Source: Callorhinchus milii (taxonomy: Eukaryota). Taken from it: a stretch of DNA of 64,000 nt. Below, in pieces: positions 7,460 through 52,808 of this stretch (its first letter is position 1; each line of letters begins with the position of its first letter). The position numbers and the translations under genes are program-made. Below the pieces are notes generated by a model, which worked only from the letters and a program-made list of their open reading frames with translations, was not told the origin of the DNA and ran no database searches. The stretch spans positions 135,658,001 to 135,722,000 of the forward strand of contig NW_024704742.1 of the NCBI RefSeq assembly GCF_018977255.1. The letters are read 5' to 3'.

Positions 7460-8220
7460 GATTGACACACACACACACACGAGAAAGACACATGCATACA
7501 AGACACACACACGAGGAAGAGACACACGTAGCATGAGAGCGACACTCATACACGCAAGAGAGACAAACTCACACGCGAGACACACAATACACATACATGC
7601 AAACGAGAGAGGGAGAGACGCACAGACACCACAGACAGAGAGCGACACAGAGAGAGAGAGAGACAGAAAGATACACACAGATCGAGAGCAAACGAGACAA
7701 ACTGAAGCTTGAAAACACAGCAGATAAAGATTGGAAAACAAACCAAGTGAAGTGCCAACACTTCAGCATACAGGTGACAGCTTGTTACAGAGACTGATCA
7801 TCCACAACCCCAACAACCCCCCCCACACACAGCTGTCTCCCCGCCACTCCCACACACACACACACACAGACCCACACACACACAGCCCCCCACCAGACAC
7901 ACACATATAATCCATCCTACACACATGCACACACAATCCCCCTCACACACATTCACACAGCAACCCCCCCCACCCACACACAGCGCACTCTCCCAATACA
8001 CACACACAGCCCCCACCCCCACACACGCGCAGTGCACCCCCCCCACACACACGCGCACACAGCCCCCCACCACCACCCTCGAGACTGACTATGACACAGC
8101 ACCCCCAGCCCGCCACCCAGTGACCGCCCATCACACAGGACATCCCCTCACCTACACACACAGCCTCCGCGCCCCCGAGAGACTGACAATCAAACACAGC
8201 CACCACCCCCCCCACCCCAC
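7460..8220. repeat. Degenerate (CA)n/(GA)n low-complexity region
   Basis: Visible dinucleotide runs and C/A-rich sequence. Confidence 0.9.
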
Positions 8221-8860
8221 CTAGAAACTATCGCAGAAACGCAGGACATTTCCCTCCGCCCCCACCACAAACGCACAGACCGACTCTCACACAGAGGACG
8301 GTCAGCCTGTCTGCCCCACTGTCCCCCCGCCCCCTTCGATCTGTACTGTGCTGAACTCCGCACATTCCACAAGCAGTGAGTTCAGACTGTAACGTGTTGC
8401 ACACTGACTGGAGGGGAAACGGGCAAACTCAACCGATCGAGAGGGATGCAGCACTTTGCCACAATCATTCATGGTCCCGACGGAGTCTTTAAGGAGACTT
8501 ACTGTGTAGCTTTGCGGGGGTGAGCACACACTCTCTCTCTCTCTCTCTCTCTGGATACTGCGTGTGGATTTTAATCTTCCTTTTCCACTCTGCAGGTAAG
8601 CGACAGACCTCTCTACAGGTTCTCCTCTCTCTCTCTCTCTCGCTCTCTCCTCTCTCGCTCCCTCCCTTCCTACACCTCTCTCCCAATTACCTGTAGAGTG
8701 TCAGCTCTGACATTTCCAAGAGGTGTGGCTTTTGAGAAGTAACTCCACGCACTCCAGACCCAGGCAAATGTCAGCTTCAGAATTTCTAAGGAAGGGGAGG
8801 CGTGGAAATCTGCTCTCTTAAGATTTCCGTGTTTCGGATGAGACGTTAAGCCGAGGTCCC

Positions 8861-9174: not shown

Positions 9175-11534
9175 ATCTGTTTGCGCAGCTGGATGTTAAA
9201 GATCCCATGGCGCTATTCGAAAAGAGAAAGGGGTTTCCCTCACCCCGTGTCCTGACCGACAATAAAATTTGGTCGCTCAGCCCACGAATGTTTGTGTGAC
9301 TTTGCAGTCAATTCACTTTACAGTATATCCTGTGAAGCACTTTGAGACGTCTCAACAACGCGATAATATGTAAGCATTATTATTATTTTACGAAACTGTG
9401 TCTGACTTAGTGGGCAGCATTCCTGCCTCCGAGTCCGAAGGTTGTGGATCCAAGCCCCTCTCTCTTCCTCCCCCACACGTCAGGACTGGATTCTAAGCGC
9501 CTTTCACATTGGGCAGGACATCTCAAAGCTGATCACTGGATTTACTGTAAAGTGTACTGACTGTATACTGTGCAGGAGAAATGCGGCAGCCAATTTACGC
9601 AAATAGAGCCATGGGATCTTTACCGTCCAATTGAACAAGCACAGATGGGACCTTGGTTTAATGTCTCATCCGAAGGATGGTCACCTCTGACAATGCAGCA
9701 TTCCCCCGGCAATACATAAGAGTTTCAGCCTAGACTGTGAACGAGGTTAAGCCCCAACTGAGAACATCCAATTTGCACCAGTATAATCTATACTTACCAT
9801 TGTATTAGCATTTGATAAAACATCTATTCTTTAATAGGTGCCCCACAGTTGACAATTTGCACACAGCAATGTGCTCACCAACAGCTGTGAAGTGAATGAC
9901 CAATTTATTATCCTGAAGACTGTCAGCCAGGACACTGGGGAATAATTCCTTATCTTTTCTAATAATTTCACAGCTGTAGAGACATGCACACACACACACA
10001 CATCACTCACCCACTCACGTACAAAATACTCTCACACACACACCACTCACATATACACACACGCATGCACACAAACACCCAACCACCATTTACATACAAC
10101 AACAACAACTTGCATTTATATAGCGCCCCTCACACAGGGTAGCGTTCCAGAACAATTAAGTGTTCCAGAGCGCACGCGCGCGCACACACACACGCACACA
10201 CGTTGATTTGGGAGTGAGATCGGACTCACTATTGAAGAAGATTGGGTGTGTCTCTCTCTGAACAGGAATTTGCAGTTTGACCTGTAAATTTTTAATTTAA
10301 CAAAAAATTTGATCTGCCTCCAGCTTTGCCCCTCCCTCTCACCGCAACCTGCGCCCGCCCCCACCCCACCCAACCCCAGCCTGCGCCACACACCCCCCCC
10401 ATCTGAGTCACCTTCAATGAAGACTGATGAGCTCCTAGCTTGTCTAGTCGTTACTCATAGCTCATTCCTCTAACACTGGGAATCAGCCTCGGCTCCTCTC
10501 CTCCGCACCACCCCTCTAGGGGTTTAGGTAGCCCCTCACACCGCAGGGACCAGAACTTGTACAGATGTTCGCAAAGTCCTGTTACCCCCGCCTGGGTTTT
10601 TTCTTACACTGTTTATTTTCTGTTGCAGATGAGTGGAGGGTAAGATGATAATTATCTGATGATAATAATCCTTGCATTTGATATTGTTATTGTTGAGACG
10701 TCTCAAAGCGCTTCACAGTGTACACTGTAGAGTGGATTTGACTGCGTATTTTTGTGATACCAGTAACTACTATCGAGGAAAGTATTGTGGTCAGTGTCTG
10801 GGTCAATGAACGTCTGAGGGCATTTTAAGGAACGGTTCCAAAAGTGCCCCTCACCCCCCAAAAAAAGATGTTAAACACATGTCCTGAATACCATTAAGTA
10901 TATCTATCAACAGTTATCATCAGTCTTCCACATGTTTCAGTTGTTGGTCAGGGCGCTACAGAAAAAAAACATGGGCGTAACATTTGTGAACTTCCTGTGC
11001 ACAGTGTCCGAGGTGAGGAGTGTCGTAAAAGTCAACGCACTGTTAGTTGGCTGGAGGGGAGAGGAGATGGTGGTTGAAGGGGGCTGAGGAGGCATAGGGA
11101 GTTAGGAGAGGGCTGGGCGGAGAATCTGGGTGTGGGAGGAGGGGTGACAAGAGATGGGTTCAAAGCGCAGTTAAGTTACAGCAAAAATGAGTGAATTTTC
11201 CTTGTCTCTCTTTCTCAATCTCTCTCTCTCTCTCTCTTTGCCGCTTCCTGTTCCAGTAAGCAGTCATTTGATTAGTCAACCTTACATTGGACCCAAATCC
11301 AAGGTCGACAGAGCACACGACCAAATGACATCTCTCCATCTGAAGACCTTCCTCTTTGACCGTGCTTACAGTCACTTACCCCCTTCCCCCCCAGGCTCAG
11401 CATTGTGCTTTGCATCATCAAGTGCTCTGGGATGCTACTTGCGCTGCATGAGGAGTGCTATATAAATGCAACAACAACAAATTAGATTTGTAGAGCGCCT
11501 TTCACACTGAGAGGACATCCCAAGGCACTGTTGT

Positions 11535-30974: not shown

Positions 30975-32130
30975 GTAACCCCACTGCGCCATCTCCAACC
31001 TCCCTTTCCTTTCCAAAGTCCTTGACAGAGTTGTTGCTTCGCTCCTTCACTGCCACATCCTTTACGAGCCCCTCCAATCAGGTTTCCGTGCTGCCCACCG
31101 CATAGAAACAGCCCTGGTCAAAGTGACAAATTACATTCTGTCCATCTCTGACCAGGGCTCCCTCTTCCTCCTCATCCTCCTTGACCTCTCTTCTGCCTTC
31201 GACACTGTGGACCCCTCTATCCTCTTCCACCGCCTCTCCTATCACCTCAACCTTCAAGGTTCTGTCCCATCTCAGATCCCATCTCTCACACCGGCTCCAA
31301 TTTGTCTCCACAAGTGGATTTTCCTGCAGTCCCTGCACCATCTCATGTGGTGTTCCTAAGGGCTCTGTCCTTGGTCCCCTCCTCTTCAACCTGTAAATGC
31401 TCCCTCTTGATAACATCATCTGCCAACATCATCTGCACGTATGGGGATGACCCCTAACTCTATCTCTCTGCCTCGAACCTCGACTCCAGGACCATTGATG
31501 TCCTGACAGAATGTCTGCCGTACATCAAGTCCTGAATGAGAGCCAACTTGCTACAGTCAAACGTCAGCAAGACCGAGCCTCTCAAGATTGACTCGCACCA
31601 GCACCTCCACACCTCAGGTACTGGCAGCATCAGCATCCACAGATGCACACTCCACCTCACCAAGCCAGTCAGGATCCTAGGCATCTTGTTCGACCCTCAA
31701 CTGTCCTTTCTCCCCCATATCCGTGCCATGACCCACTCTGCCTTCCCCCACCTCCGCAATATTGCTCGCCTCCACCACTGACTCATCTATCAGGTCGCGG
31801 AGACCCTCATACATGCATGCCTTCATTACATCTAGGCTCGACTGTGCTAACTTCCAGCTTGTTGACCTTCCCAACTCTTCTCTCCACAAGCTGCAGATTA
31901 TCCAGAACTCTGCATCTCGTCTTCTCTCCTACATCAGGCTCTGTGACCCCCATCACACCCACTCTCGCCCGCTCCACCGGCTTCCCATTCCTCAGAGGAT
32001 CGAGTTCAAAATCCTCAGTCTGACCTTCAAGGCCCTCCACGGCTTTGCCCCTCCTACCTCTCCGACCTGTTACCGCCTTATTGACTTGTCCCCTCCCTCC
32101 ACTCAGCAAACTTCTGCCCACCATCGGTGA
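30975..32130 (+). mobile_element. L2 LINE RT fragment
   Basis: [33 protein letters not shown] and RIEFKIL, with frameshifts. Confidence 0.9.
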
Positions 32131-32242
32131 TCGGGCTTTCCAGAGTTTTGGGGCGTAGTGGCTGAAGGCACAGGGTAAGCAGGTCATATAGGCAAGAGGT
32201 GTGAGGGTAAGTAAGGTAAGTGTGATGAGGTAGTTGTGTGTC

Positions 32243-32685
32243 AGCCTTTGGTAGGGTGGTAGCGCTCTCGCCTCTGAGTCAATAGGTTGTGGGTTCAAGT
32301 CCTATGTCAGGACTGGGAATCAAGGCTGACACTCCAATGCAGTGCTGGGGGTTGGTGCATTGTGAGAGGTGCCGTCCGTTAAATGAGACATTAAACCAAG
32401 GTCCCATCTGGCTGTTCAGGTGAGCGTTAAAGATCCCATGGCTTTATTCGAAAAGAGAAGGGAGTTTCTCCTGGTGTCCTGACCAATAAATCCCCCAAAT
32501 AAAATTGTTCACTCAGTCCACGACTGTTTGTGGAACACTTCTGTGAGCAATTGGGTGCTGTGTTTCACCCACAAAATCCACATCAACCCACTTTACAGTA
32601 TGTCCTGTGAAGAGTTTGAGACATCTCAATGAGGTAATAAGGCGCTATATCAAATGCAAGGATAATCATTATTAATTATTATTAT
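32243..32685 (+). mobile_element. Full-length DeuSINE copy
   Basis: tRNA-like head, Deu core, shared 3' half and (ATT)n tail. Confidence 0.85.
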
Positions 32686-35219: not shown

Positions 35220-36390
35220 CCATCTATTTTTGCAAAGGACCTTCCACATCAGGAGGATGTCCCAAGGTGCTGAACAGTCAGGGATCAGGACTCAAGCATG
35301 GGGTTGGGTGGGGGGGGTGGCGCAGGGTTGAGATGAGGGAGGACAGAGGGGATAGGAAGGTGGCTGAAGGCACCATCAAAAAAGAGGGTCTTGAATCATG
35401 CGAAGGGATTGGGGGATGGCGTACCAAAGGGTGGGGACAGAGCGGCTGAAAGCACGGCCGTCGATGCTAGGGTGGATTGGGTGGGAGAAATGGAGCAGGC
35501 CGGAGCCTGCTGAATAGACGGAGCAGACAGGTTGTTAGGAGGTTAGCAGGCCAGAGATGTAGGAGGGGGCAAGACCTTGGAGGGCTTTGAAAGTGGGACG
35601 AGGATTTTGAATTCTATCCTCTGAGGGATACGGAGGCAGTGGAGCCGGGCGAGGGTGGGGGTGATGGGGTCACAGAGCTGGTGCAGGAGAGGACACGAGC
35701 TGCAGAGTTCTGGATGATCTGCAGCTTGTGGAAGGAAGAGTTGGGGAGACTGACAAGGAGGGAGTTTCCGTAGTCGAGATTTGAGGTAACAAATGCGTGT
35801 ATGAGGGTTTCGGAGACCTGAGGAGTGAGGCAGTGGTGGAGTCGGGCAATGTTGCGGAGTTGGGGAAGGCAGAGGGGTCATAGCACGCTATGGGGGAGAA
35901 AGGACAGTCGAGGGTCAAATAAGCCACCCAGATTCCAAACTGGCTTGGTAAGGTGGAGTGTGCAACCTTGGACGCTGATGCTGCCAGTGCCTGAGGTGCT
36001 GAGGCGCCGACGCAAGCCAATCTGGTGGGCCTCAGTCTTGCTGACATTCAGCTGTAGAAAGTTGGCTCTTATCCAGGACTTGATGTCAGACATCAGTTGT
36101 TCTAGAATCGATGGTGGAGGCAGAGATAGAGTTGGGTGTCATCCGCGTACATGTGGAAATTAAACCCCATGTCTGTGGATGATGTCTCCAAGGAGGCACA
36201 TGTAGAGGAGGGGACTGAGGATAGAGCCCTGAGGAACACCACCTGAGACTGCGGGGGCTGGAAGAGAAACCGTTGGTGGAGACAAATTGGAGACGGTGTG
36301 AGAGATAAGGCCTGAAGCATTCAAGGCAGAACCTTGAACGTTGAATTGAAAGGAGAGGCGGTGGAGGAGGATGGCATGGTCCACGGTATT
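35220..36390 (-). mobile_element. L2 LINE 3' part
   Basis: GVPQGSILSPLL, HMYADDTQLY, NFLQLNVSKTE, RIPQRIEFKIL. Confidence 0.9.
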
Positions 36391-37497
36391 ACATTGAGAT
36401 GTTTGACGTCATTGGTACTGTGTCAACGTCGAGGATTAATTTATTCATCCCTGAGGGTAATTCACATCTGGCGTTTAATCTGCGCATTTGCTGGTAAATT
36501 TGTCAAATAAAAACAAAGAGCAACACATCTAGTATTTTAATGGTAGTATTATTGGTAACTATAGCGACAGAGAGAAGCAGAGTGTTGGTTCATTTCATTT
36601 GTGTGAGAATGTACCCTGGCCAGTGAAGGGTGTAGGGAGATCCAATCAGTTGGCTTGGGTTCAGTGAATACAAGGAGGTCTATTCTTGCGGTATTTCGTA
36701 ACAGCATTCCTTGATAAACTCAGGATTGGAAGTTCAAGCCTCACATGAGAGACTTTGATCTCACAGTCTAGGCTGATGCTCCAGTGTAGTGCTGGGGGTA
36801 GTGCCACATTGTCAGAGGCGTAGACAATATGACACTACCCCCAGCATGACTTTGAATGAGTCCAAAGTCCCGTCTGTGCCCTGTTTAGATGGATCTTAAA
36901 GATCCCGCGGCATTATTGGAAAAGAGAAGGGAGTTTCTCCCCAAGTCCTGGCTGGCTAAAGATATCCCCAGCTGAACATAAAACTGGTTGTTTATCTCAT
37001 GGCTGTTTGTGGGACATTGCTGTGCGAAAATTAGCTGCTGTGTTCCTCCACAAAATATAGTCACGACACTTCATAGAAAACTCCATGCAGTGTTGTGATG
37101 TATTTTGATGTCCAGATAGGACCACCCTACTTTGGTTTGCAGGGTTAACAGGAGCTGAGTGGGATGATTCCCTACCCCCAGTGACTGGTCTGTCCTTTTA
37201 AGTCCTGTTGATTAGCCAGGCTGGGCTGTGCTGTCCTCAGCAATGGCCTGGAATACTGCAGACCCACCAGCCTCAGGAACCAGACTAGAGAACGTCACAG
37301 AGGGTTCGCTCGATTGCGATATTCAATTGCTCCAATGAGACCCTACTTTATAGGTGCTGTATCTAATGATAAGGAAGTGAGTGTGTGTGGGTGGGGGGCT
37401 TCTTGCAGTAACCAGTATTACATCTCGCTGGAGGAAACCCACTATTACATCCAGATCGGAGTTCTGGCGGGTCGACAGGAGATTGTGACGGGATTCC

Positions 37498-37503
37498 TTT
37501 ATT
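37498..37503 (-). terminator. Candidate polyadenylation signal (AATAAA) of the bicupin gene
   Basis: tttatt on the + strand about 430 nt downstream of the stop codon, in non-repetitive sequence. Confidence 0.45.
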
Positions 37504-37928
37504 AAGGAATAATATTCCTGTTCCGAAACACCACAAACATTAGCTAGACCAGGTCACAGAACCCAGTGACAACCGGAGCTGGGTCCCTTTTCATCCCAAC
37601 TCCCAGGCGAAAATTCCGTCTGGCGTTGAAGTGCATCGAGCGGCGTCACCACCTTAACACCGAATGCCATTCATTCCCCCATTAACACCCAGAGCAAGCG
37701 TAATAGTAATAATCCCTTCAAAAATAATAAGAATAATTTGGTCACTCAATCCATATTTGTGAGCAATTGGCTGCCACATTTTGCCCACAAAAAAACTGGT
37801 TAATTTACTTCATAATATATTCTGTGAAGTACTTTGGGACGTCTCAATTACATGATAAGGCATTGTATGAAATGCAAGGATGATTATTATTGAGGCATGG
37901 TGAGCATTTAGCTAACGGCAGGTTAAAC

Positions 37929-38063
37929 CTATGGCATATTGAGTGCTTGATTCCCCTCTAGAACCTTCAGTCTCTTGACCTGGTCCTGGGGTTTCATGAA
38001 TAGTTGAGCCAGGATGTGGTCAGCCGTTGCATTGTAATATTTGTGTATGTCCAGAGTCTCCAG
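37929..38063 (-). CDS. Bicupin gene terminal exon 9: LETLDIHKYYNATADHILAQLFMKPQDQVKRLKVLEGNQALNMP*
   Basis: ctttctctgttcctcag|CTG acceptor, 45 codons to TAG; C-terminal helices resemble OxdC/germin tails, and NQALNMP mirrors NQAVNLP of exon 5. Confidence 0.9.
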   Translation of the reverse strand: METLDIHKYYNATADHILAQLFMKPQDQVKRLKVLEGNQALNMP

Positions 38064-38746
38064 CTGAGGAACAGAGAAAGAATCACACGTCATTCTCCCG
38101 AGCAAACACACAAACATACCCCATTGAGCATTCAAAATGAGAAAGAGTTTCTCCAGCTATTCTAGGAATTTAGGAACAGGAGTAGGCCATTCAGCCCTCG
38201 CGCCTGTTCCACTATTCTATCAGATTATGACTGATCTGTACCTCAACTCCAATACCTGCTTTTTCCCATATCCCTTGATATTCTGACCTCACAAAAATCT
38301 ATCCACCTTAGTCTTCAAAAAGTGAATGGATCCAGCATTCACAGCCTTTTGGAGGAGAGAGTTCCATAGTTCCCTTACCCTTTGTCTGAAAACAATTCCA
38401 TTTTCACAATGTCCTGGCCAACAATCCCACCGGATCATAATAATAATAATAATTATTGTCCCACAAAATCATGAATTGAGTCAATTTTTTTTTGAGGGAT
38501 TATTACTTCTGGAAAGTGATCGACAATCGAATAACAACCGGGTTCCTACTTACTGCTAGGTAAAAACAACAATAAATTACACTTGTGTAGTATCTTTCAC
38601 ATCAGGAGGACGTCCCAATGCATATGGAGTAAGGAAACTTGCCTAACTTTTCATCCTGCCCAGAAATCGAACCCGGATCCTTTTGTTTGCAAGGCAAGTG
38701 CTCTAACCACTACACTACAGGACTTGATTAAGGAAGGATGTCTTAC

Positions 38747-38896
38747 CTGGTTGCCAGTGCTGAAAGCACTGATTGCCAACATTGGCTCGTCACAGATACT
38801 TTTGACGAAATGTTGAGTCCCAATGGGGAAGAATGCCAAGTCTCCTGTGTTTATGTAGAAGTTTGAGACTGAGTTTCCGGGACTAAAGACCCCAAC
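38747..38896 (-). CDS. Bicupin gene exon 8: VGVFSPGNSVSNFYINTGDLAFFPIGTQHFVKSICDEPMLAISAFSTGNQ (cupin 2, motif 2)
   Basis: ccattcag|GTT acceptor, CAG|GTAAGA donor, 150 nt, phase 0/0; GD-x4-P-x-G-x2-H motif. Confidence 0.93.
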
Positions 38897-39578
38897 CTGA
38901 ATGGAGCACAGAATAAAACAACATGGAGCATTAATATTACTACTAATAATAATCCTTGTAGTTAATACAATACTGTGATGCTGAGTGTCTCAATCGCTTC
39001 CCAAACATTTACTGACAAATAGTTGCAGGCAAGTGCATAGACCCACAAACTGTTGCTGTGTCAGATGAGCCTGGCTCAACAGCAGTACTTGGATGGGCCG
39101 GGCAGTCACTGGGAGCTGGGATTCTTCCCACTCGGCTCCTACTAACCCTACAATCCACATAGGACCTTATCTGGTCAAGCAGTGGGAAGCTTGCCAGACA
39201 GTGCTTTTAATGGCAAGCTATGCAGTTTTAGCTGGTTACAATCTAGCAGTTACCCCAACGCACACTCGGGGCTCCTCCAAGCCTTGGCTTTTGCCAACCT
39301 ACGTCTAATATTTTCCAGAATTAGGTAAGCATGACATTACAGGACTCCACTCCATTTTGGCTAAACAGAATAAGATGGTCTTTTCAAGTGGCACCTTTTG
39401 CCGCAGGCTTCAACAGAGCAGTTAGTTCCATTGCTGGCGATAGCTTCGCTCCCAATACTTCTGAGCTAGAAACAAAGCTGCTACCAACTGAGCCACAGCT
39501 GACATGTCTCCTTATGCCGTATTTTTACCGGCCCCAAAGTTAGCAGCTGTTAATGTTAACAATGAAAGGCAAGGTTAC

Positions 39579-39692
39579 CGATCCACAGCCTCTCGCGATG
39601 TACACCATCTCATTGGCGTTGGTGTGGAAATGGGGCACACGGAGCCCGTTATTCGGGATGTCCATTGTTGATATAGTGAGGCTGTCTTCATT
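39579..39692 (-). CDS. Bicupin gene exon 7: NEDSLTISTMDIPNNGLRVPHFHTNANEMVYIARGCGS (cupin 2, motif 1)
   Basis: ttttgttccag|AAT acceptor, TCG|GTAACC donor, 114 nt, phase 0/0; RVPHFHTNANE metal motif. Confidence 0.93.
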
Positions 39693-40706
39693 CTGGAACA
39701 AAACATTACGTTGAACCAAAGATAAAACAAAGAGAAAATGCAGCCAGCCTTTACATTGGATTCAAGCCAAGTCTTCTCTGCCTGAACTCAATCCCTCCGC
39801 CTCGTTGCCTCTTTGCCCGTCTTCAGATCACACCTGAACATCTTCCTCTTTGACCATACCTACAGCCACCTCCCCTCTCTTCCAGGCTCAGCATCAAGCT
39901 TCGCCACTGTTAAGCGCTCTGAGACTTTGGCCCGTGTAAAGGGTGCTGTACAAATTTAAGTTGTTGTTGTTCATTTGTGAACCCAAGATCACAAGAAGTT
40001 TGGATAAACACTCTTTGGTGATTTCATCCTTCCAGATTACCCACACTACTGTCCTCCCATCACAGCATTGAGCTGTTTGTCAAATGATAATGTCCCAACG
40101 CCTGCCCTCAACCGCACTTCCTTGTACCATAAGCTCTCCAAGATGTCGTCCAGTGTGAAGAGAGCTAGATAAATGTAATTTGTTGTTGTTGTTATTGTTT
40201 CCTTTCCTCTGCACTGCCTCTCTGGCCTGGGCCTTAAAGAACATGTTAAGAGAGTGAGGAATCCAGAAAAATGCTCTGGAATTCAATCTTAATTTGGAAG
40301 CCGTTTCCCATAGGATTATCTTGGGAGGTGGTCGAGGAAGGCTGGGGTGGGGGAACGAGCCTCCAAAATCAGACTGAATTGAGTGAAAAGCATTTTGTAA
40401 AATTCTTCACCATCTCATGATTCTTAATGAAATGGTATTAAATCTAAGGACATGAGGCCATTTAGGCTCAATGGGTTATTGGTCTCCCAATGGCCTCCGG
40501 TGGGTATAATAATAACAATAATACTTGCATTTAATATAACACCTTATCAGGTCATTGAGATGTTTCAAAGCGCTTCACAGGATATACTGTAAAATGGATT
40601 TGCTGTATAGTTTGTGGACGAAACACGACAGCCAGTTGCGCATATTAGTGTCCCACTTTAGAGTCACATCTGTAGGACAGTCACTGGAGATGTAAATGGC
40701 AAGTAC

Positions 40707-40816
40707 CTCATTGAGGAATTCACTGTATATCTTCTCATTTTTATTCAGTGATGATGTATCTTTACGGTATCGGGCCCATTGAATCGTGCCACCAGGATAG
40801 ATGTAGGTTATGGAGC
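40707..40816 (-). CDS. Bicupin gene exon 6: (G)SITYIYPGGTIQWARYRKDTSSLNKNEKIYSEFLNE
   Basis: gtcctag|GC acceptor, GAG|GTACTT donor, 110 nt, phase 1/0; PGGTIQWARYR repeats PGGTVQWSRYR of exon 3. Confidence 0.92.
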
Positions 40817-41246
40817 CTAGGACCAGAAATAAAGACACCATAATGTGTTTTAATAATAATAAAATAATAATCCTCGTTGTAGCATCTTATCATGGTTTCA
40901 AGACGTCTCAAAGCACTTCATCGAATATACTGTAAAGTGAATTGACTGTATACTTTGTGGGAAAAACGCAACAGCCAATTGCACATAGCAGTGTCCCACA
41001 AACAGTGACCAAATTATTTTTATTTATTTTGAAGGAATTGTTACTCCCGTGAAAGTGATCCGCCAATTGACTAACAACTGAGTTCCTACTTACTGCTAGA
41101 TAAACAGAGGCGTGTGGAGTAAGGAAACTTGCCTAAGGTTTCACCCTGCCTGAGAATTGAACCCGGGTCCTCTAGTTTGTGAGGCGAGTGCTCCAACCAA
41201 TCAACACAATCATCCCCTCTAACACTGCATCGCTGTTTGTGGTTAC

Positions 41247-41400
41247 CTTTCAGATCATAAAAGTACTTTGCGACAATGTCATCCGAAGCCTTTGGGTAAC
41301 TAGCGCTTCTGATCAGCTGGTCCAGGTTCGGGGGAAGATTGACAGCCTGATTTTCTTCCGCTCTCTTGAATGATTTTATGAACTTGATTCCGTCTATGGG
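41247..41400 (-). CDS. Bicupin gene exon 5 (inter-domain linker): PIDGIKFIKSFKRAEENQAVNLPPNLDQLIRSASYPKASDDIVAKYFYDLK
   Basis: tgtgcaaag|CCC acceptor, AAAG|GTAACC donor, 154 nt, phase 0/1 matching both neighbours; non-repetitive island, translated by hand. Confidence 0.88.
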
Positions 41401-42202
41401 CTTTGCACATGGAAGACAGGAGACAAGAGGTTTTGGGGAAAGCGGGTTAAAATTGGACGGTGTGATGTGCTAACTGATAATAATAACACCACTAATCCTT
41501 GCATTTGACATAGCGCCTTATCACATCATTGAGATGTCTCGAAGAATATACTGCAAAGTGGATTGACTGCATATTTTGTGGGAGAAACGGAACAGCCAGT
41601 TGCACCCAGCAGTGGCCCACAAAGCCGTGGATTAAGTGATTTTGGGGTTGGATTAATACTCCCGGAAAAGGCGTGTGAAATACGCAGGAGCCCAGAGCCA
41701 GTCGGGTGGAGGCAGCGGGTAGTGGGTTGGAGAGTAAGCAGGTTGGAGAGGTAAGGAGGTGCCAGGGGATAAAGGGATTTGGAGACGAGAGTGACAATAA
41801 TAATAATAATAATCTTTGTATTTGATAATGCACCTTATCATGTCATTGAGACATCCAAAAGCTCTTCACAGAATATACTGTAAAGTGTAGGGCCGGGCAT
41901 TTTGTAGGCGAAATGTGGCAGCCAATTGCCCACAGCTGTGTCCCACAAACAGTGGTGGATTGAGTGACCAAATTATTACCATTATGTTTTTTGGAAGGAT
42001 TATTACTCCCGGAAAGCGATCTACCAATTGAGCAACAAATAGGTTCCTACTTACTGCGAGGTAAACGGAGGCGTGTGGAGTAAGGAAACTTGCCTAAGGT
42101 TTTACCCTGCCTGGGAATCGAACCCAAGTCCTCTCGTTTGCAAGGCGAGCGTTCTAACCAATATGCTACAGGACTCCACTTCACAATGTGCACTTCACTG
42201 AC

Positions 42203-42436
42203 CTTGAGTGCCCTGGCAGCGATATCCTGTGGTGTGGCGAAGAACGCATCGTCCACGTCAATGGAGCGGAGCTGCTCGTGAATGGTGAAGAAAAGGAGGA
42301 AGATAACCTCATCTGGCCCCACGTTCTTCATCCAGTGCATCGTGTTCTTGGGCAAGAAGAAGACCTGTCCCACCGTGATGTTAAACGTTCCTACCACCTT
42401 GGCATTTTCATCCACCACCCCAATCCACGCTGTTCC
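42203..42436 (-). CDS. Bicupin gene exon 4: GTAWIGVVDENAKVVGTFNITVGQVFFLPKNTMHWMKNVGPDEVIFLLFF...FFATPQDIAARALK (cupin 1, motif 2)
   Basis: ttttcctcctctag|GGA acceptor, AAG|GTCAGT donor, 234 nt, phase 0/0; G-x5-P-x4-H-x3-N motif 2 and the TP.D...A helix typical of OxdC-like proteins. Confidence 0.93.
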
Positions 42437-42944
42437 CTAGAGGAGGAAAAAGAATGCTCACATTCTAATAATATAATAAAAACAATAATAATATTCCTCG
42501 CATTTGATATAGCGCCTCATCACGTCATCGAGACGTCTCGAAAAGCTTCACAGAATACACTATTAAGCGGGATTGGGCTGTGTATTTGTGGGTGAATCCT
42601 CGCATTTGATACATCGCTTTATCTCATCGCCAAGACATCTCGCAGCGCTTTGCGGGATTTACTGTGAAGCGTAGTGACTGTGTATTTGTAGGCAAATGCA
42701 GCCAAATTGCACACAGTGCTTCACTTCACAGAATATGCTGTAAATTGGATCGACTGTATATTCTGTGGGTGAAACACAGCAGACAATTGCACACAGTAGT
42801 GTCCCACAAACAGCCATGGATTGGGTGAAACCGACGGCCAAGAAGTGAATGACCTGATTTTTATCAGGGGGAATGTTGGCCAGGGTGAAACTCCCTTATC
42901 GTTTTTAACTACTAATTACATTTTTATAACGCCATTATACATTT

Positions 42945-43320
42945 TTATAACGCCTTTCCCCTCGAGGACATCCCAAGGCGCTGGACAGTCAGAGATTTGG
43001 ACCCGAGCTGGGAGTTGGGATCAGGAGGGGTGGAGGGCAAGGTGGGTAGGGGGTAGAAGAGTGACTGAAGATGAGGTCGAAGAGGAAGGTCTTGGGACGG
43101 GCCTTGAAAGAGGCAAGGAAGGGGGCGAGGCAAAGGGACAGTGGGATGGAGTTCCAAAAGGTGGGGGCAGAAAGGCTTGAGGCCCGACAGCCGATGGTGG
43201 GCCAGGCGGGGCGGGGCCAAGTGGAGCAGGCCAGAGTTCGCCAAGAGGAGGGAGTCAGCGGGTCACAGAGACAGGGAGGAGCAAGGTCGTGGAGGACTAC
43301 GTGCTAAAGCCTGAGATCTT
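42945..43320 (-). mobile_element. L2 3' fragment in intron 3 of the bicupin gene
   Basis: Matches the L2 3' end (ttcaaggcccgtcccaagaccttcctcttcgac...cagcgccttgggatgtcc). Confidence 0.8.
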
Positions 43321-43369
43321 AAGGCTGAGAGCAGCTGGAATTGCAGGGCTGCATAGGCCATGGGCTTAC

Positions 43370-43576
43370 CTGCAAGACGTATCCATGTTCATTGGAGTTC
43401 AGGTGCCAGTGAGGAACACGCATGCCTTTCCTCTTGATGCGGAGGATGCTGCCAGTCATTTTAGACTGAAACTTGTTGATATTGGTACCAAATTCACGCG
43501 ACTCTCTGTCAGGGTATTCTTCTGGGTTCTGACGATATCTGGACCATTGCACAGTGCCTCCCGGGAACTTAAATAA
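43370..43576 (-). CDS. Bicupin gene exon 3: LFKFPGGTVQWSRYR...GMRVPHWHLNSNEHGYVLQ (cupin 1, motif 1)
   Basis: tctcag|TTA acceptor, CAG|GTAAGC donor, 207 nt, phase 0/0; R-x-x-H-x-H-x4-E cupin metal motif. Confidence 0.93.
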
Positions 43577-43999
43577 CTGAGAGATTATGAGAAGACTGTA
43601 TCTTAGCTCATTGAACACCCAGTACACAGTGGTGAGGTTTCCACCTCAATAAGAGTAATAAAGAGTTACCAACAGTAGTAATAATAAATATTAACTAATA
43701 ATAGCAATAAATAGTAATTAATAATAGTAGTAATAATAATAACCCTTGCATTTGATGTAGTGCCTCATTATGTCGTTGAGACGTCTCAAAGTGCTTCACA
43801 GAATATACAGTAAAATAGATTGATTGTATTCTGTGGGTGCAACGTGACAGCCAATTGCGCACAGCAGTGTCCAACAAACAGTTGGGGATTGAGTGATCAA
43901 TTTTATTTGGAGGATTGTTGTCCAGGACACCGGGAGACAGAGAAACTCCCTTCTTCTTTCAAGTAGTGCAGTGGGTCCACCTGAACAGGCACCACCATC

Positions 44000-46095
44000 T
44001 CCTCCGTCCAACTTCCATTACCTCGCCCATTCTCTCCTCAAACTCCAACTGTGAGGAGATGCTGGACTTCCTCGAATCCAAAATCGAGGGGATACATTCA
44101 GCCACTTCAGCCCCATCCACAGCCACCTCCACATCACCTCTCCCTCATGACCCAACCCCCACCCATTCCCCACCCCCCATACTCCTTCGACCGTATCTCT
44201 CCCTCCTCCCTCACCACGACTGTCCGCAAACTCAAACACACCATCTGCTCCCTCGATCCCACCCCCAGCTCTCTCCTCATCTCTCAGCTCCACCTTCAGG
44301 CCCCTCTCCTGTCTGATGTCATCAACCTCACCTTGTCCACCGGTTCAGTTCCCACCCCCTAAAAACAGCCGTCATCACCCCCATCTTGAAAAAACCTTCT
44401 CTGGATCCATCTCTCCTCTCCAGGGACCGCCCCTTCTCTAACCTCCTATTCCTCTCCAAGGTCCTGGAACGAGTTGTCGCATCCAGCTCCGTACTTTCCT
44501 TTCTCGCCATTCCCTCTTTGAACCCCTCCAATCCAGCTTCCCCACTGCCTATAGCACGGAAACAGCCCTGGTCAAAGTCACTAATGACTTTCTGAATATC
44601 TGTGAACAAGGCTCCCTCTGCTTCCTTGTCCTCTTCGACCTCTCTGCCACCTTGGACACAGTCGACCACTCCATCCTCGTGCACCGCCTCTCCACTTCTC
44701 AATCTTCGTGGACCTGCCCTTGCCTGGTTTGATTCTATCTCTCTCACCGTCTCCACTTTGTTGCCTTAACGATTTCTCCTCCAGCCCCCGCACTGTCATG
44801 TCTGGCATCCCCCAGGGCTCTGCCCTGGCCCTCTCCTCTTTAATATCTACATGTTTTGGAGTCCTGTAGCTCAGTGGTTAGAGCACTCGCTTTGCAAGTG
44901 AGAGACCTGAGTTCAATTCCAGCAGAGGGCGAAACCTTGGGCAAGTTTCCTTACTCCACACAGAGCCTAATAATAATCCCTCCAATGTCAAAAACAATAA
45001 TAAATTGGTCATTTTCAATCTACGACTGTTTGTCGGACATTGCTGTGCGCAATTGGCTGCCGCGTTCGCCCACAAATGTACAGTCAATTCCCTTTACAGT
45101 GTGTTCTGTGAAGCGCTTTGGGACGTCCTCCCGACGTGAAAAGCGCTATAACAAATGCAAGGATTATTATTATTATTATTATGCTCCCCCTTGGTGACAT
45201 CATCTGCAGACATGGGGTCAACTTCCACATATATGCAGATGACACCCAACTCTATTTTTCTGCCTCCACCCACTGCTGTCCTGACAGACTGTCTGTCGGA
45301 CATCAAGTCCTGGATGAGGGCAAATTTCCTACAATTGAATGTGAACAAGACTGAGGCCCTCCTGATTGGCTCGCGCCAGCGCCTCAGCACCTCAGGCTCT
45401 AGCAGCATCAACCTCCATGGTTTCTCCCCCACATTCAAGCCATGACCCGCTCTGCCTTCCTTTACCTCCGTAACATTGCCCGACTCCACCACTACCTCAC
45501 CCTCAGGCCGCTGAAACTCTTGTTCATGCCTTCATCCCTCCAGGCTCGACTATGCAAACGCCCTGCTTGTCGGCCTTCCCAACTCCACAGGCTGCAGATA
45601 ATCCAAAACTCTGCAACCCATAGCCTCTCCTACACCAAACTCCATGACCCAATCTCCCCCATTCTCGCCCGACTCCACTGGCTCCCTATCCTTAGAGGAT
45701 CTAGTTCAAGATCCTGGTCCTCACATACAAAGCCCTCCGTGGCCTCGCCCCACCCTACCTCTGTGACCTCCTAACCAACCCGCCTGTTCCGTCCGCTCAG
45801 CCGGTTCTGGCCTATTCCATGTCCTCCGACCCACCAGCCCCACCATTGGCGGGAGAGCCTTCAGCACTCTGCTCCCAACCTCTGGAATTCCATGCCCCAG
45901 TAACTCTGCTTTGCCCCCTCCTTAGCCTCTTTCAAGTCCCATCTCAAGACCCTCCTCTTCGATCATGCCATCGACCACCCCCCCTTCCCCTCCCCTCCCT
46001 TCCACCCCGACCCCAGCTCGGGTCTGAAATGCTATACTTCTGTCAGCACCTTGGGACGTCTTCCCAATACAAATGTAATCTTCTTGTTGTTGTTG
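44000..46095 (+). mobile_element. L2 LINE (about 1.8 kb of ORF2 3' half), antisense in intron 2, interrupted by a SINE
   Basis: KKPSLDP..RPFSNLLFLSKVLERVV, HIYADDTQLY and LHWLPI, with an L2 tail ending ttgttgttg. Confidence 0.92.
44858..45180 (+). mobile_element. Young tRNA(Ala)-headed Deu-core SINE
   Basis: A box tagctcagtgg, B box agttcaattcc, anticodon-like loop tttgcaa, (ATT)n tail; splits the L2 text aatatctacatg / atgctcccc. Confidence 0.93.
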
Positions 46096-46317
46096 AAGAG
46101 GCAGCAAGATTTAACATCTCATCCGAAGGACTGCATCTTTGACACCCCCAGCACAGCACTGGAGTGTCAGCCGGGACTCTATGGTTTCCAACTCCCAATG
46201 TGTGGGGCAAACCCACAAACTACGGACTCAGAGGCGAGAGAGCTACCAACTGAAGTAGGCTAACACAGCTAAGAATATTCTGTGATCGTAACATTGCACT
46301 CATCCTTAAAGACGTAC

Positions 46318-46535
46318 CTTGGACTTGTATAGATGGCTCAGGAATCTATATTTTGTATCGATCTGCGTCAATTTGGGCTTATTATTGCCGTCTGTTGGAG
46401 TTCCTTGCTGGTTTGGGTTGTAGAGTATTGAGGTGGTTTGTAGGTTACCACCACAATCAATGTGATTATAGTGGTTAGCACAGTGGCCAACAGACACACC
46501 AAGAAAATCTTCAGCGTGGAAACTGTCTTGATGGC
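46318..46535 (-). CDS. Bicupin gene exon 2 (218 nt, two open frames): TM frame AIKTVSTLKIFLVCLLATVLTTIITLIVVVTYK...AIISPN*; -1 frame ...KLTQIDTKYRFLSHLYKSK leading into the cupin
   Basis: Acceptor ccttttcccttccag|G and donor AAG|GTACGT. The -1 frame ending KYRFLSHLYKSK is phase 0 with exon 3 and parallels KYFYDLKGS before cupin 2. Confidence 0.8.
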
Positions 46536-47403
46536 CTGGAAGGGAAAAGGCAACCAGTGAGAGTTGCTGTGGATTCATAGAATGTTAGAAAGTTTACAGC
46601 AACAACAACTTGCACCCCTCACACAGAGAAGCATCCCAGAATGCTTGACAGTGGCGGAGCCGGGGGTGGTGGTGACTGTAGGCACGGTCGAAGAAGAAGC
46701 TCTTCAGGCGGGATCTGAAGACGGGGAAGAAGGGGGCAACCCGGAGGGATAGAGGACGAGTGTTCCAGAGTTTACAGCATTTGGCCTATCGTGTCCATTG
46801 CTGGTGCTCACTGCTCCCCCACCCCCCAAGAGCTTTTAGTCTCATCCCATTTTTCTGCTTTCCCTCATCTTGCATAGACTGGTCCTCACTCCCCCACTGG
46901 AAAGATTCCCTGCTGTCTCCCGATCGTGTCTGTGCTGGTGTTCGCTCCCCTACTGGAGCTCTCTACTCCAACCCCATTTCCTGCTCTCTCCCCATTGCGT
47001 CTGAGCTGGTGCTCACTCCCCCACTGGAGCTCTTTTCTCTGATTCCCCTGCTTTTCCCCTTTTACTTATCACTTTTATTCTTATTTCAATAACCTTCTGT
47101 ATGTAAAATTAGGGTTTTTCCCGACGGGGAAAGTCCACATTCAACTCCAGATACATGGGGAACTTGCATGTGTGGGTGAGATACATATGTCGAGCTCTCA
47201 GTCTTGATTTAGTTGCTCTTAAGTGTAGTCTGCGTTCCTCATAGAATCATAGAATCTTACAGCACATGAGTGGCCATTCGGCCCATCGTACCTATGACAG
47301 CTCTTTGAAAGAGTTACCAACTAGTCCCACTCCCCCACTCTTACCCCATAGCCCTGCAATCTTTTCCTTTTTAAGTCCGAGATGAGGTTGTGACATATGG
47401 TAC

Positions 47404-47493
47404 CTGGTATGGTTGTGGGGGTCCATGAGAGCTTGAAGCACCTTCCATCTGTCTTTCACCCAATTCAAATGCTGCGTTATCCTTACCAGGCAT
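47404..47493 (-). CDS. Bicupin (oxalate decarboxylase/germin-like) gene, coding exon 1: MPGKDNAAFELGERQMEGASSSHGPPQPYQ
   Basis: Acceptor tttttacag|A at 47505, ATG at 47493 preceded by an in-frame TAG, 30 codons, then donor CAG|GTACCA (phase 0). Joins in frame to the hydrophobic helix of the next exon. A second donor, CTG|GTAAGG, lies after 47487. Confidence 0.7.
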
Positions 47494-50377: not shown

Positions 50378-51733
50378 AGGGGACCATCCAGAAGTCATGG
50401 TCCATGTTGGGATCCATGATGTAGGGAGAAAAAGGACTGAGATCCTATAGGGAGAGTATCAGAAGCTAGGGAAAAAGCTAAAGAGTAGGACCTCAAAGGT
50501 GGTGATCTCTGAATTACTCCCATTACTCCCAGTGCCTTGTGCAAGTGAATATCAAAACAGCAGGATCAAACACATGAATGCAAGGCTGGAGAAATGGGGC
50601 AGAAAGGAGGGCTTCAGGTTTCTGGATCATTTGGACCAGCTCTGGGGCAGGTCGAATCAAAGGTGAACATACTCAACTGGAAGAGGCTAATTTCAGTGAG
50701 TTAAAAAGGAACCGAGGAAAGAAAGATTGGTTGGTAAAATAGCTAACAAGCAATGGGAAGCCTTCAAGGAGGAAATAGTTTGGGGGCAGAACCAATACAT
50801 TCCCACAAAGTAGAAAGGCAGGGCATCCAAACCTCACTTGATTAATAAGGAAATTGGAATTAAAATAAAACAGAACAAGAGGCTTATGATAAATGTCAGG
50901 TCCAAAATACAGAAGATAATCAAATAGAATATAAAAAGTGCAGAGGAAAACTGAAAAAGGAAATAAGAGGGACAAAGAGATTGTTTGAGAAAAGATTAGC
51001 AGGTAATATAAAAGGGAGTCCGAAGGTATTTTATAAGCATACAAAGAATAAAAGGTTAGTCAAAGGTAGGGTGGGTCCAATTAGGGACCAAAGAGGAAAT
51101 CTTCTTGTGGAGGTGGAGGGCATGGCTGACGTACTGAATGAGTACTTTGCACCTGTCTTCAGAAAAGAAAAGGATGCAGCCAATGCCACAGTATCAGAGG
51201 AGAGGGTAGAGAAATTGGATGAGATAGGAATAAACCAAGAGGAAATACTAAAACAGTCATCGGTGGTCGAGGTAGATAAGTCACCCAGTCCAGAAGGGAT
51301 GCATCCTAGGTTACTGAGGGAAGTAAGGATGGAAATAATGGAGATTCTGGTAAATCTCCAGAAGCTCTTTCAATCCCCTTGGACACCGGGGTGGTGCCAG
51401 AGGACTGAAAGATTGCAAATGTATTCCCCTGTACAAAAAGGGACAGAAGGGATAAACCCAGGAACTACAGGCCATTCAGCCGCACGTCAGCAGTGGGGAA
51501 ATTTCTAGAGACTATAATCCGGGACAAAATAAATTTTCACTCAGGAAAATTGGGCTAATAAAGGTCAGCCAACATGGATTTGTTAAAGGCAAATCAATGT
51601 CTAACAAACCTGATAGTATTTTGTGATGAAGTAACAGATACCTGGATGAAGGCAGTGCAGTTGATGTAGTTTACATGGATTTTCAAAAGGTGTTTGATAA
51701 AGTGCCACATGAGAGACTAGTAAGCAAAATAAA

Positions 51734-52060
51734 ATAATAATAATAATAATAATCCTTGCATTTGATATAGCGCTTTTCACGTCGGGAGGACGTCCCAAAG
51801 CGCTTCACAGAACACACTGTAAAGTGAATTGACTGTATATTTGTGGGCGAACGCTGCAGCCAATTGTGCACAACAATGTCCCACAAGCAGTCGTAGATTG
51901 AAAATGACCAATTTATTATTGTTTTTTTGTTTTGTAGGGATTATTATTTGGCTCTGTGTGGAGTAAGGAAACTTGCCCAAGGTTTCGCCCTCTGCCTGGA
52001 ATTGAACTCAGGTCTCTCGCTTGCAAAGCGAGTGCTCTAACCACTGAGCTACAGGACTCC
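51734..52060 (-). mobile_element. Young tRNA(Ala)-headed SINE in CR1 ORF2
   Basis: Full-length copy with a long (ATT)n tail. Confidence 0.92.
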
Positions 52061-52808
52061 ATGATCCAATTTTAGATGCTTTGATGTTCAAGTTTCTCCT
52101 CCTGTTTGGGTACAATTGAACCGGACATCAGTGCGTAATACTGCCCACAGTATTAAAGGGATAGTGGCAGCATGGATACCGAACTGGCTGGGAGACAGGA
52201 AGTAGAGTGGTGGTGAATGGTTGTTTTTCTGACTGGAGGGAAGTGTACAGTGATGTCCCCCAGGGATCAGTATTGGGACCACTGCTGTTTTTGATCTATA
52301 TAAATGACCTGGACTTGGGTACAGGGAGTACAATTTCCAAGTTTGCAGATCATACTAAGCTGGGAAAGTAGTAAACAGTGAGGAGGATAGCAGCAGACTG
52401 CAAATGGACATAGACAGACTGGTAAAATGGGCAGACACGTGGCAGATGAAGTTTAATGTGGAGAAATGTGAAGTGATGCAATTGGGAGGAAGACTAAGGA
52501 GAGGCAATATAGGCGAGGTTGTAGAATCTTAAAGGGGGTGAAGAAACAGAGAGATCTGGGGGTTTGTATAAGCAAATATTTGAAGGTGGCAGGACAGGTA
52601 GACAAAGCTGTTAAAAAAGCATAGAGGGTGCTAGGCTTTATAAATAGGGCACAGAATACAAGTCAGGAAGTTATGATGAACGTTTATAAAATACTGGTTA
52701 CGCCTCAGCTAGAGATTGTGTTCAGTTCTGGGCACCACACTTTAGGAAGGATGTCAAAGCAGTGGAAAAGGGTGCAAAGGGGATTTACCAGAATGGTACC
52801 AGGAACTT

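What the first reader, a model, noticed from the sequence alone, without database searches (positions are those of the whole stretch)
37929..47493. Intron-containing vertebrate bicupin of the oxalate decarboxylase/germin type with two intact metal sites
Seen: exons 3-9 splice through GT-AG junctions with consistent phases into 367 aa carrying two cupin domains (MRVPHWHLNSNE...MHW and LRVPHFHTNANE...QHF). Established: this His/His/Glu/His set with an Arg three residues before the first His is the Mn site of Bacillus subtilis OxdC (Arg92, His95/His97/Glu101/His140; His273/His275/Glu280/His319). Such enzymes are characterised in bacteria, fungi and plants, and humans lack an oxalate-degrading enzyme. 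Inference: this fish encodes an uncharacterised Mn-bicupin, possibly for oxalate or superoxide chemistry, either retained from early animals or acquired anciently. The ORF track shows it only as scattered fragments.
Basis: partly seen in the sequence, partly recalled or inferred. Interest (0 to 1): 0.85.

Follow-up and report, generated by a model that had tools for sequence, protein, structure and literature searches.

The report
Cell-surface oxalate-enzyme relative humans lost
This is a real, spliced chimaera gene of the named but untested vertebrate CUPIN1 family (reported as a pseudogene in humans), encoding a predicted membrane-anchored protein with two intact metal-site motifs that likely uses manganese to break down oxalate or a similar small acid outside the cell.

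Summary
Exons 3-9 give 367 aa, identical to residues 104-470 of a catalogued 470-aa Callorhinchus protein (LOC103184852), and one transcript-type contig bridges exons 2-9. Exon 2 looks frameshifted, but three runs carry the missing base, so this is likely an assembly slip.

- an N-terminal membrane helix, which predicts an outward-facing enzyme;
- the family's range, from chimaera to mammals; it is already named CUPIN1, a pseudogene in humans and reported lost in mouse;
- this copy being a fast-changing second paralog.

All eight metal ligands are kept in 114 of 120 homologs, and the fold matches MncA and OxdC (Z about 36). It fails the OxdC family model (94 bits, cut-off 254). Its lid is two residues shorter, with Gln where most homologs have the Glu aligned to Glu162. 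Its two domains are sisters of each other, so it is not a direct OxdC orthologue.

Best reading: a manganese ecto-enzyme acting on oxalate, oxidase-like in this copy (about 0.38). Ten literature searches showed no functional study.

The parts
47404..47493 (-). Coding exon 1 (residues 1-30, predicted cytosolic tail); a likely acceptor lies about 12 nt above the ATG, so the 5' UTR probably has an upstream exon
   Evidence: Translation equals P0001 1-30; GT donor; upstream exon is inference
46318..46535 (-). Coding exon 2 (residues 31-103): membrane helix, stalk and first strands; one base missing in the window near 46407-46408
   Evidence: 218 nt here against 219 needed; extra base in contigs of X1, X5, X8
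46443..46517 (-). Predicted transmembrane helix, residues 37-61, CLLAC-like
   Evidence: Hydropathy peak 2.9; helix 37-61 in the model; PF15675 19.8 bits against cut-off 25 here, above cut-off in four homologs
43370..43576 (-). Exon 3 (residues 104-172): Arg156, His159, Trp160, His161, Glu166 of site 1
42203..42436 (-). Exon 4 (residues 173-250): sequon Asn191, His206, lid-like loop 223-230 with Glu226 and Gln227
41247..41400 (-). Exon 5 (residues 251-301): end of domain 1 and linker
40707..40816 (-). Exon 6 (residues 302-338): start of domain 2
39579..39692 (-). Exon 7 (residues 339-376): Arg356, His359, Phe360, His361, Glu366, Cys374 of site 2
38747..38896 (-). Exon 8 (residues 377-426): His405, Cys411
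37929..38063 (-). Exon 9 coding part (residues 427-470 and stop)
37500..37928 (-). 3' untranslated region, continuing below 37500
   Evidence: X1 contig covers 37500-38063 unbroken and has 169 more letters beyond the stretch laid

Best explanation
This is an intact, spliced gene for a divergent second copy of vertebrate CUPIN1, a predicted membrane-anchored, outward-facing two-domain cupin that keeps both His/His/Glu/His metal-site motifs and likely uses manganese and oxygen to break down oxalate at a cell surface, in this copy probably as an oxidase giving CO2 and hydrogen peroxide. Shown: the gene structure, splicing, family membership and ligand conservation. Predicted: a type II membrane helix, bicupin fold, N-glycans and a Cys374-Cys411 disulfide. 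Inferred: manganese as the metal; the N-terminal site as the catalytic one, with Arg156 holding a substrate carboxylate; Glu227 of most homologs acting as the Glu162-type proton donor (decarboxylase-like); and the Glu226-Gln227 pair of both chimaera copies resembling the oxidase-type lid. The substrate is untested.
For: Ligands: all eight in 114 of 120 listed homologs; Arg156 in 119 of 120 and Trp160 in 120 of 120. Asymmetry like OxdC, where catalysis is placed at the N-terminal site (PMC6850040 passages): Arg356 is Gly in 23 of 120 rows, 22 of them named birds, while Arg156 stays; the lid position aligned to Glu162 is Glu in domain 1 of 116 of 120 but Gln in domain 2 of 111 of 120 (register). 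Lid residues switch specificity: SENS161-164 to DASN or DSSN turns OxdC into an oxidase, and Asp241 at the 161-equivalent matters in the fungal bicupin oxidase (PMC3585803 passages). Both chimaera copies have an acid at that place and Gln next to it. Fold: model pLDDT 90; best matches MncA Z 36.2, rmsd 2.7 over 335 residues, and OxdC Z 35.2-35.9. Topology: hydrophobic segment in 113 of 120, sequon at 191 in 112, Cys pair in 115; human dynAP, which shares the CLLAC segment (recalled), is a type II membrane protein with its C-terminus outside (PMC8329785 passage).
Against: TIGR03404 score 94 against cut-off 254; four homologs score 113-142. Identity to MncA and OxdC is only 15-21%, and metal-free 11S globulins score almost as well by fold (Z up to 34.6), so the fold does not name the reaction. 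The loop is two residues shorter than OxdC's in 118 of 120 and aligns without gaps to the DEL162-163 mutant 2uya; profile alignments place the gap differently, so the Glu162 register is uncertain. The Trp274 position is Phe in 112 of 120, and W274F keeps about 20% of OxdC efficiency (PMC8254039 passage). Putting Glu into the fungal oxidase lid (A242E) did not make a decarboxylase, so lid reading has limits. The two vertebrate domains group with each other (99 SH-aLRT), so site roles need not map onto OxdC. OxdC works best near pH 4 and keeps 7% at pH 7.2. Cats, dogs and rats keep CUPIN1 yet form calcium-oxalate stones, and mammals are held to lack oxalate breakdown (both recalled). This copy departs from 33 of 163 family-conserved columns, against 6-9 for three other copies. 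Tissue is unknown.
Confidence: 0.38

Rival explanations
1. It is a metal-dependent ecto-enzyme on another substrate: superoxide (germin-like dismutase), or another small carboxylic acid or aromatic compound cleaved with oxygen at a mucosal surface.
For: Three His plus Glu sites serve many cupin reactions (PMC3765361 passages). OxdC family cut-off not met. Both domains carry a family-specific helix at 127-138 and 327-338 and an invariant GG..QW.R segment that was not found in the 104 distant hits. Own internal duplication on a long stem.
Against: Arg three residues before the first His is kept in 119 of 120, as in oxalate enzymes; the best solved matches by sequence and fold are oxalate-decarboxylase-type proteins.
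Confidence: 0.35
2. It binds metal or a ligand without turnover, for example sequestering Mn or Zn at an epithelial surface or acting as a surface receptor or adhesion protein.
For: Amphibian paralogs have lost the ligands yet keep the membrane anchor and bicupin body, some with Thr-rich tails (P0127, P0129, P0134), so the scaffold can serve without metal. Seed globulins are metal-free members of the same structural cluster.
Against: The main family keeps not only the ligands but also second-shell residues (Arg156, Trp160, His225, Glu227, Thr230) from sharks to mammals, which fits catalysis better.
Confidence: 0.17
3. This copy is a decaying or broken duplicate, and the working gene is the other chimaera copy (LOC103185496).
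For: Frameshift in exon 2 of the window; end branch 0.65 against 0.19 for the other copy; 33 departures from conserved columns.
Against: The missing base is present in contigs of three runs from three studies, and a spliced contig spans exons 2-9 with one other letter; a RefSeq NP_ record reads through; all eight ligands, both Arg and the Cys pair are kept.
Confidence: 0.1

Closest known systems
Vertebrate CUPIN1 (cupin superfamily member 1; VGNC names in horse, dog, cat, cow; human pseudogene CUPIN1P, HGNC:54490)
   Same: About 50% identity over 99% of the length to pig and cat proteins named CUPIN1; membrane helix plus two cupin domains; falls inside the family tree.
   Different: A second, faster-changing chimaera copy: mean 55% identity to other homologs against 67% for LOC103185496, and 56% between the two copies; CLLAC score under cut-off; Gln227.
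Bacillus subtilis oxalate decarboxylase OxdC (TIGR03404 family)
   Same: Bicupin fold (Z 35.2-35.9), two His/His/Glu/His sites, Arg92 and Arg270 equivalents, Trp96 equivalent.
   Different: 16% identity; family cut-off not met; membrane anchor; lid two residues shorter with Gln at the Glu162 position in this copy; Phe at Trp274 and at Trp132 positions; domains not one-to-one orthologous.
Synechocystis MncA / Sll1358 (2vqa)
   Same: Best match by sequence (E 3e-16) and fold (Z 36.2); a manganese bicupin.
   Different: 18-21% identity; bacterial, with no membrane anchor of this kind; full-length lid.
Ceriporiopsis subvermispora bicupin oxalate oxidase
   Same: Bicupin with both arginines; acid at the lid position equal to OxdC 161 and no Glu at 162, as here by alignment.
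   Different: Fungal soluble enzyme; not compared directly by sequence here; the lid register in this protein is uncertain.
Human dynAP / DYNAP
   Same: Type II membrane protein; NCBI names many full-length homologs 'dynactin-associated protein'; shared CLLAC segment (recalled for dynAP).
   Different: 210 aa with a Thr/Ser-rich outer part; 'cupin' does not occur in the paper read.
Plant 11S globulins and germin oxalate oxidase
   Same: 11S: same bicupin fold (Z up to 34.6). Germin: same ligand set, weak sequence match (E 4e-4).
   Different: 11S proteins lack the metal; germin has one cupin domain.

Membership tests
Vertebrate CUPIN1 | Full-length similarity to named CUPIN1 proteins and place inside their clade | tested here: met
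   50-51% identity over 99% to P0062 (pig) and P0080 (cat); within the 24-row vertebrate set at 97 SH-aLRT, quick tree
Vertebrate CUPIN1 | Two Cupin_1 domains with complete ligand sets | tested here: met
Vertebrate CUPIN1 | N-terminal CLLAC transmembrane segment (PF15675) | tested here: inconclusive
   Helix predicted; Pfam 19.8 bits, E 6e-4, under cut-off 25
Vertebrate CUPIN1 | One-to-one orthology by gene neighbourhood | not testable with these tools
   No genome held; no clear neighbouring gene in the window; the second copy lies on a contig of the same length, 139,202,109
Oxalate decarboxylase OxdC family (TIGR03404) | Score above the curated cut-off | tested here: not met
   94 bits against 254.2
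Oxalate decarboxylase OxdC family (TIGR03404) | Two His/His/Glu/His sites and Arg92/Arg270 | tested here: met
   His159/His161/Glu166/His206, His359/His361/Glu366/His405, Arg156, Arg356
Oxalate decarboxylase OxdC family (TIGR03404) | Lid 161-165 with Glu162 proton donor | tested here: not met
   Loop two residues shorter; Gln227 opposite Glu162 in this copy, Glu in 116 of 120 homologs
Oxalate decarboxylase OxdC family (TIGR03404) | Trp96/Trp274 electron-relay pair | tested here: not met
   Trp160 kept; position 360 is Phe
Oxalate decarboxylase OxdC family (TIGR03404) | Mn content, hexamer and formate production | not testable with these tools
   needs purified protein
Bicupin oxalate oxidase (CsOxOx type) | Acid at lid position 161-equivalent, no Glu at 162-equivalent | tested here: inconclusive
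   Glu226-Gln227 fits in the phmmer register; gap placement differs
Bicupin oxalate oxidase (CsOxOx type) | Oxalate-dependent H2O2 production | not testable with these tools
   needs assay
Germin / monocupin oxalate oxidase | Single cupin domain per chain | tested here: not met
   two domains
11S seed globulins | Bicupin without a metal site | tested here: not met
   all ligands present

The most novel reading that the evidence does not exclude
Jawed vertebrates have their own oxalate-degrading enzyme: CUPIN1, a cell-surface manganese bicupin built by a lineage-specific doubling of one cupin domain of possibly microbial origin, kept from chimaeras to most mammals and lost in human and mouse. 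Chimaera copies run it as an oxidase, others as a decarboxylase, and DYNAP is a sister copy that lost first the metal sites (amphibian paralogs) and then the cupin domains.
Probability: 0.22. Interest if true: 0.88.

Novelty: new variant of a known kind. Interest (0 to 1): 0.55.

Why it matters
The gene and family are already catalogued and named, so the find itself is not new. What appears to be open is what the protein does. Animals are generally held to have no oxalate-degrading enzyme (recalled), and microbial enzymes are being developed against hyperoxaluria. A widely conserved vertebrate surface protein with two intact oxalate-enzyme-type metal sites, lost in humans and reported lost in mice, makes that assumption testable with one recombinant assay. 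If active, it would bear on species differences in oxalate handling and offer an animal-derived enzyme scaffold. If it has another substrate, it is still an unassigned vertebrate metalloenzyme that human- and mouse-centred work would miss.

Tried and rejected
Pseudogene reading from the exon 2 frameshift: rejected.

Other exon 5 acceptors: three shorter in-frame options exist; contig X1 and P0001 use 41400.

No genome is held for this window, so no genome-wide paralog or synteny search. tblastn found no second cupin gene in the window, and an exon scan of unmasked DNA showed no clear neighbour.

Pattern scans with the vertebrate alignment found no relative in GTDB genomes (6 stretches, none confirmed) or viral contigs (10 stretches, none confirmed); these scans reach close relatives only.

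Sequencing-run search: no RNA holder listed on record as RNA, the labels are guesses, and tissues are coded, so no tissue pattern.

Homodimer prediction with Mn gave no verdict (score 0.02).

Intron positions in the two domains do not coincide, so they do not date the duplication.

Horizontal transfer could not be shown. No donor clade is resolved, and some unnamed distant hits near the vertebrate branch (P0184, P0180, P0208) sit on long branches; P0184 looks like a secreted eukaryotic protein.

Earlier findings of this scan: nothing by sequence or by words.

Literature searches showed no functional study of CUPIN1. I saw 40 of 70, 25 of 1,668, 30 of 31 and 20 of 489 listings in the four larger searches. 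Subscription journals are mostly absent from the library, and the preprint's supplementary tables were not seen.

Full report
Gene structure. Nine coding exons lie on the minus strand from 47493 to 37929, all with AG/GT ends. A search with exon 3 among longer proteins returned 1 hit of 3 candidates, 100% identical: P0001, 470 aa, named C. milii LOC103184852, NP_001358763.1 and 'Oxalate decarboxylase oxdD-like'. Exon 1 equals residues 1-30 and exons 3-9 equal residues 104-470. Exon 2 is one base short in the window. I laid 4 of the 13 listed runs. Contigs of X1, X5 and X8, from three studies, carry one extra base at 46407/46408. One X1 contig of 2132 nt runs through exons 2-9 and into a 3' UTR, and X2 and X5 bridge some of the same junctions. 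The runs are only guessed to be RNA, but skipping introns at exon ends is what spliced transcripts give, and the X8 contigs are unspliced. The gene is intact and transcribed; the tissue is unknown.

Anatomy. Residues 37-61 form a hydrophobic helix, followed by a stalk and two cupin domains. The AlphaFold model has mean pLDDT 90. Its best solved matches are MncA (Z 36.2, rmsd 2.7, 335 aligned) and OxdC (Z 35.2-35.9), with 11S globulins close behind (Z up to 34.6). Among 120 listed homologs, 113 have the hydrophobic segment, 112 the sequon at 191 and 115 the Cys374/Cys411 pair. Human dynAP is a type II membrane protein with an outer C-terminus (PMC8329785, passages). That it shares the CLLAC segment is recalled; four homologs pass the CLLAC Pfam cut-off and this copy falls just under. 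An outward-facing bicupin is therefore predicted, not shown.

Family. P0001 found 158 proteins at E 0.001 or better among 3972 candidates; 120 were listed and 112 carry names. They cover chimaera, ray, sturgeon, paddlefish, gar, bowfin, coelacanth, amphibians, reptiles, birds and mammals. I saw no teleost, jawless fish or invertebrate name, but 38 hits were not shown. Pig and cat rows are named cupin superfamily member 1. PMC8574622 (passage) says CUPIN1 of horse, dog, cat and cow is orthologous to the human pseudogene CUPIN1P. [quoted passage not shown] PMC10100782 (one figure legend) lists it among genes in sheep caecal epithelium. C. milii has a second, more typical copy (P0006). The copy here is the divergent one: mean identity 55% against 67%, end branch 0.65 against 0.19, and 33 of 163 conserved columns changed against 6.

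Active-site reading. All eight ligands are present here and in 114 of 120 homologs. Arg156 is kept in 119; Arg356 is Gly in 23 rows, 22 of them named birds. In the phmmer alignment to OxdC, residue 227 faces Glu162 and 230 faces Thr165. Residue 227 is Glu in 116 of 120, and Gln in both chimaera copies and one frog; residue 226 is Asp or Glu in 117. The matching place in domain 2 is Gln in 111. This asymmetry suggests catalysis at the N-terminal site on an anionic substrate. By published lid swaps (PMC3585803 and PMC6850040, passages), an acid at the 161 position without Glu162 is the oxidase pattern.

Against a plain OxdC assignment: the family model scores 94 against 254. The loop is two residues shorter, and profile alignments shift the gap. 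The Trp274 position is Phe, which costs OxdC about 80% of its efficiency (PMC8254039, passages). A242E did not convert the fungal oxidase. OxdC is weak at neutral pH. Species that keep CUPIN1 still form oxalate stones (recalled). I therefore put oxalate chemistry at about 0.38, another redox substrate at 0.35, non-catalytic binding at 0.17 and a decaying copy at 0.10.

Origin. A search of 1.84 billion representatives gave 461 hits, 150 listed. Of 148 new rows, 11 were named, all jawed vertebrates. Of 137 unnamed rows, 30 are at least 55% identical to a named vertebrate protein, 3 are at 42-55% and 104 are below 42%. Ten of the 104 were looked up: one fungus (Basidiobolus), three bacterial clusters and six without names. 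The other 94 were not named, so an invertebrate or protist among them is not excluded; P0184 looks like a secreted eukaryotic protein. In a quick tree of 63 rows the 27 vertebrate rows form one side of a long branch (1.92, support 100) with no resolved sister. In a tree of 80 single domains the vertebrate N- and C-domains join each other (99) apart from all 60 others, and score 124-150 bits against each other versus 66-82 against the best outsider. The bicupin thus likely arose by its own doubling or homogenisation, as some distant rows also did. It is not a site-for-site orthologue of OxdC. Transfer from a microbe and descent from an old eukaryotic lineage both remain possible.

Relation to DYNAP. 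Amphibian paralogs named dynactin-associated protein or uncharacterised keep the anchor and cupin body but have lost the ligands, and some add Thr-rich tails; three of them form a separate branch. This suggests a series from metal bicupin to short mucin-like dynAP. That series is inference; synteny was not tested.

Novelty. The gene is in RefSeq, automated names already point to oxalate decarboxylase, and the family has a symbol. Ten searches of the held library showed no study of its function, topology or origin; subscription journals and preprint supplements were not visible. Measured against characterised enzymes it is a new variant: a membrane-anchored vertebrate bicupin with a short lid. 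Interest 0.55, because a single assay would test a long-held assumption about animal oxalate metabolism.

Noticed in passing
window 46407-46408: The window lacks one base that three runs carry; the runs differ in the letter (C in X1 and X8, T in X5), and both read as Arg, so a variable site may have caused the assembly slip.
   Followed up: yes
window about 44000-46100 (intron 2), also about 559-1569, 30979-32300, 35500-36500: Broken remnants of a LINE reverse-transcriptase-like frame (likeness to L2-type elements recalled); a CR1-like remnant lies near 50800-52800. About 56% of the window matches other parts of itself.
   Followed up: no
window 62983: The single N of the window.
   Followed up: no
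window about 7800-8800: CA- and GA-rich stretch with exon-like segments (8712-8785 minus; also 10520-10639 plus) that could be the start of a neighbouring gene; not identified.
   Followed up: no
proteins P0124, P0127, P0129, P0132, P0134, P0136: Amphibian CUPIN1 paralogs that have lost the metal ligands; some have Thr-rich tails and are named dynactin-associated protein, paralleling the metal loss of plant 11S globulins.
   Followed up: partly
bird homologs, e.g. P0008, P0017, P0018: Birds have Gly in place of the C-terminal-site Arg (23 of 120 rows) and the three bird rows have a shorter or altered C-terminus; databases name bird fragments OXDC, GL25 or LEGB.
   Followed up: partly
proteins P0002, P0003, P0112, P0047: Pelodytes ibericus has several copies on one contig length, two annotated with three cupin domains; may be an expansion or fused gene models.
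   Followed up: no
proteins P0184, P0218, P0190, P0206, P0244: Unnamed distant cupins that look eukaryotic (P0184, P0206 and P0244 with leader peptides; P0190 with a membrane segment near residue 60 and three cupin stretches). P0184 falls near the vertebrate branch on a long, unsure branch.
   Followed up: partly
protein P0143: A Basidiobolus ranarum bicupin sits among bacterial-type bicupins in the tree and is the best-scoring full-length non-vertebrate hit.
   Followed up: no
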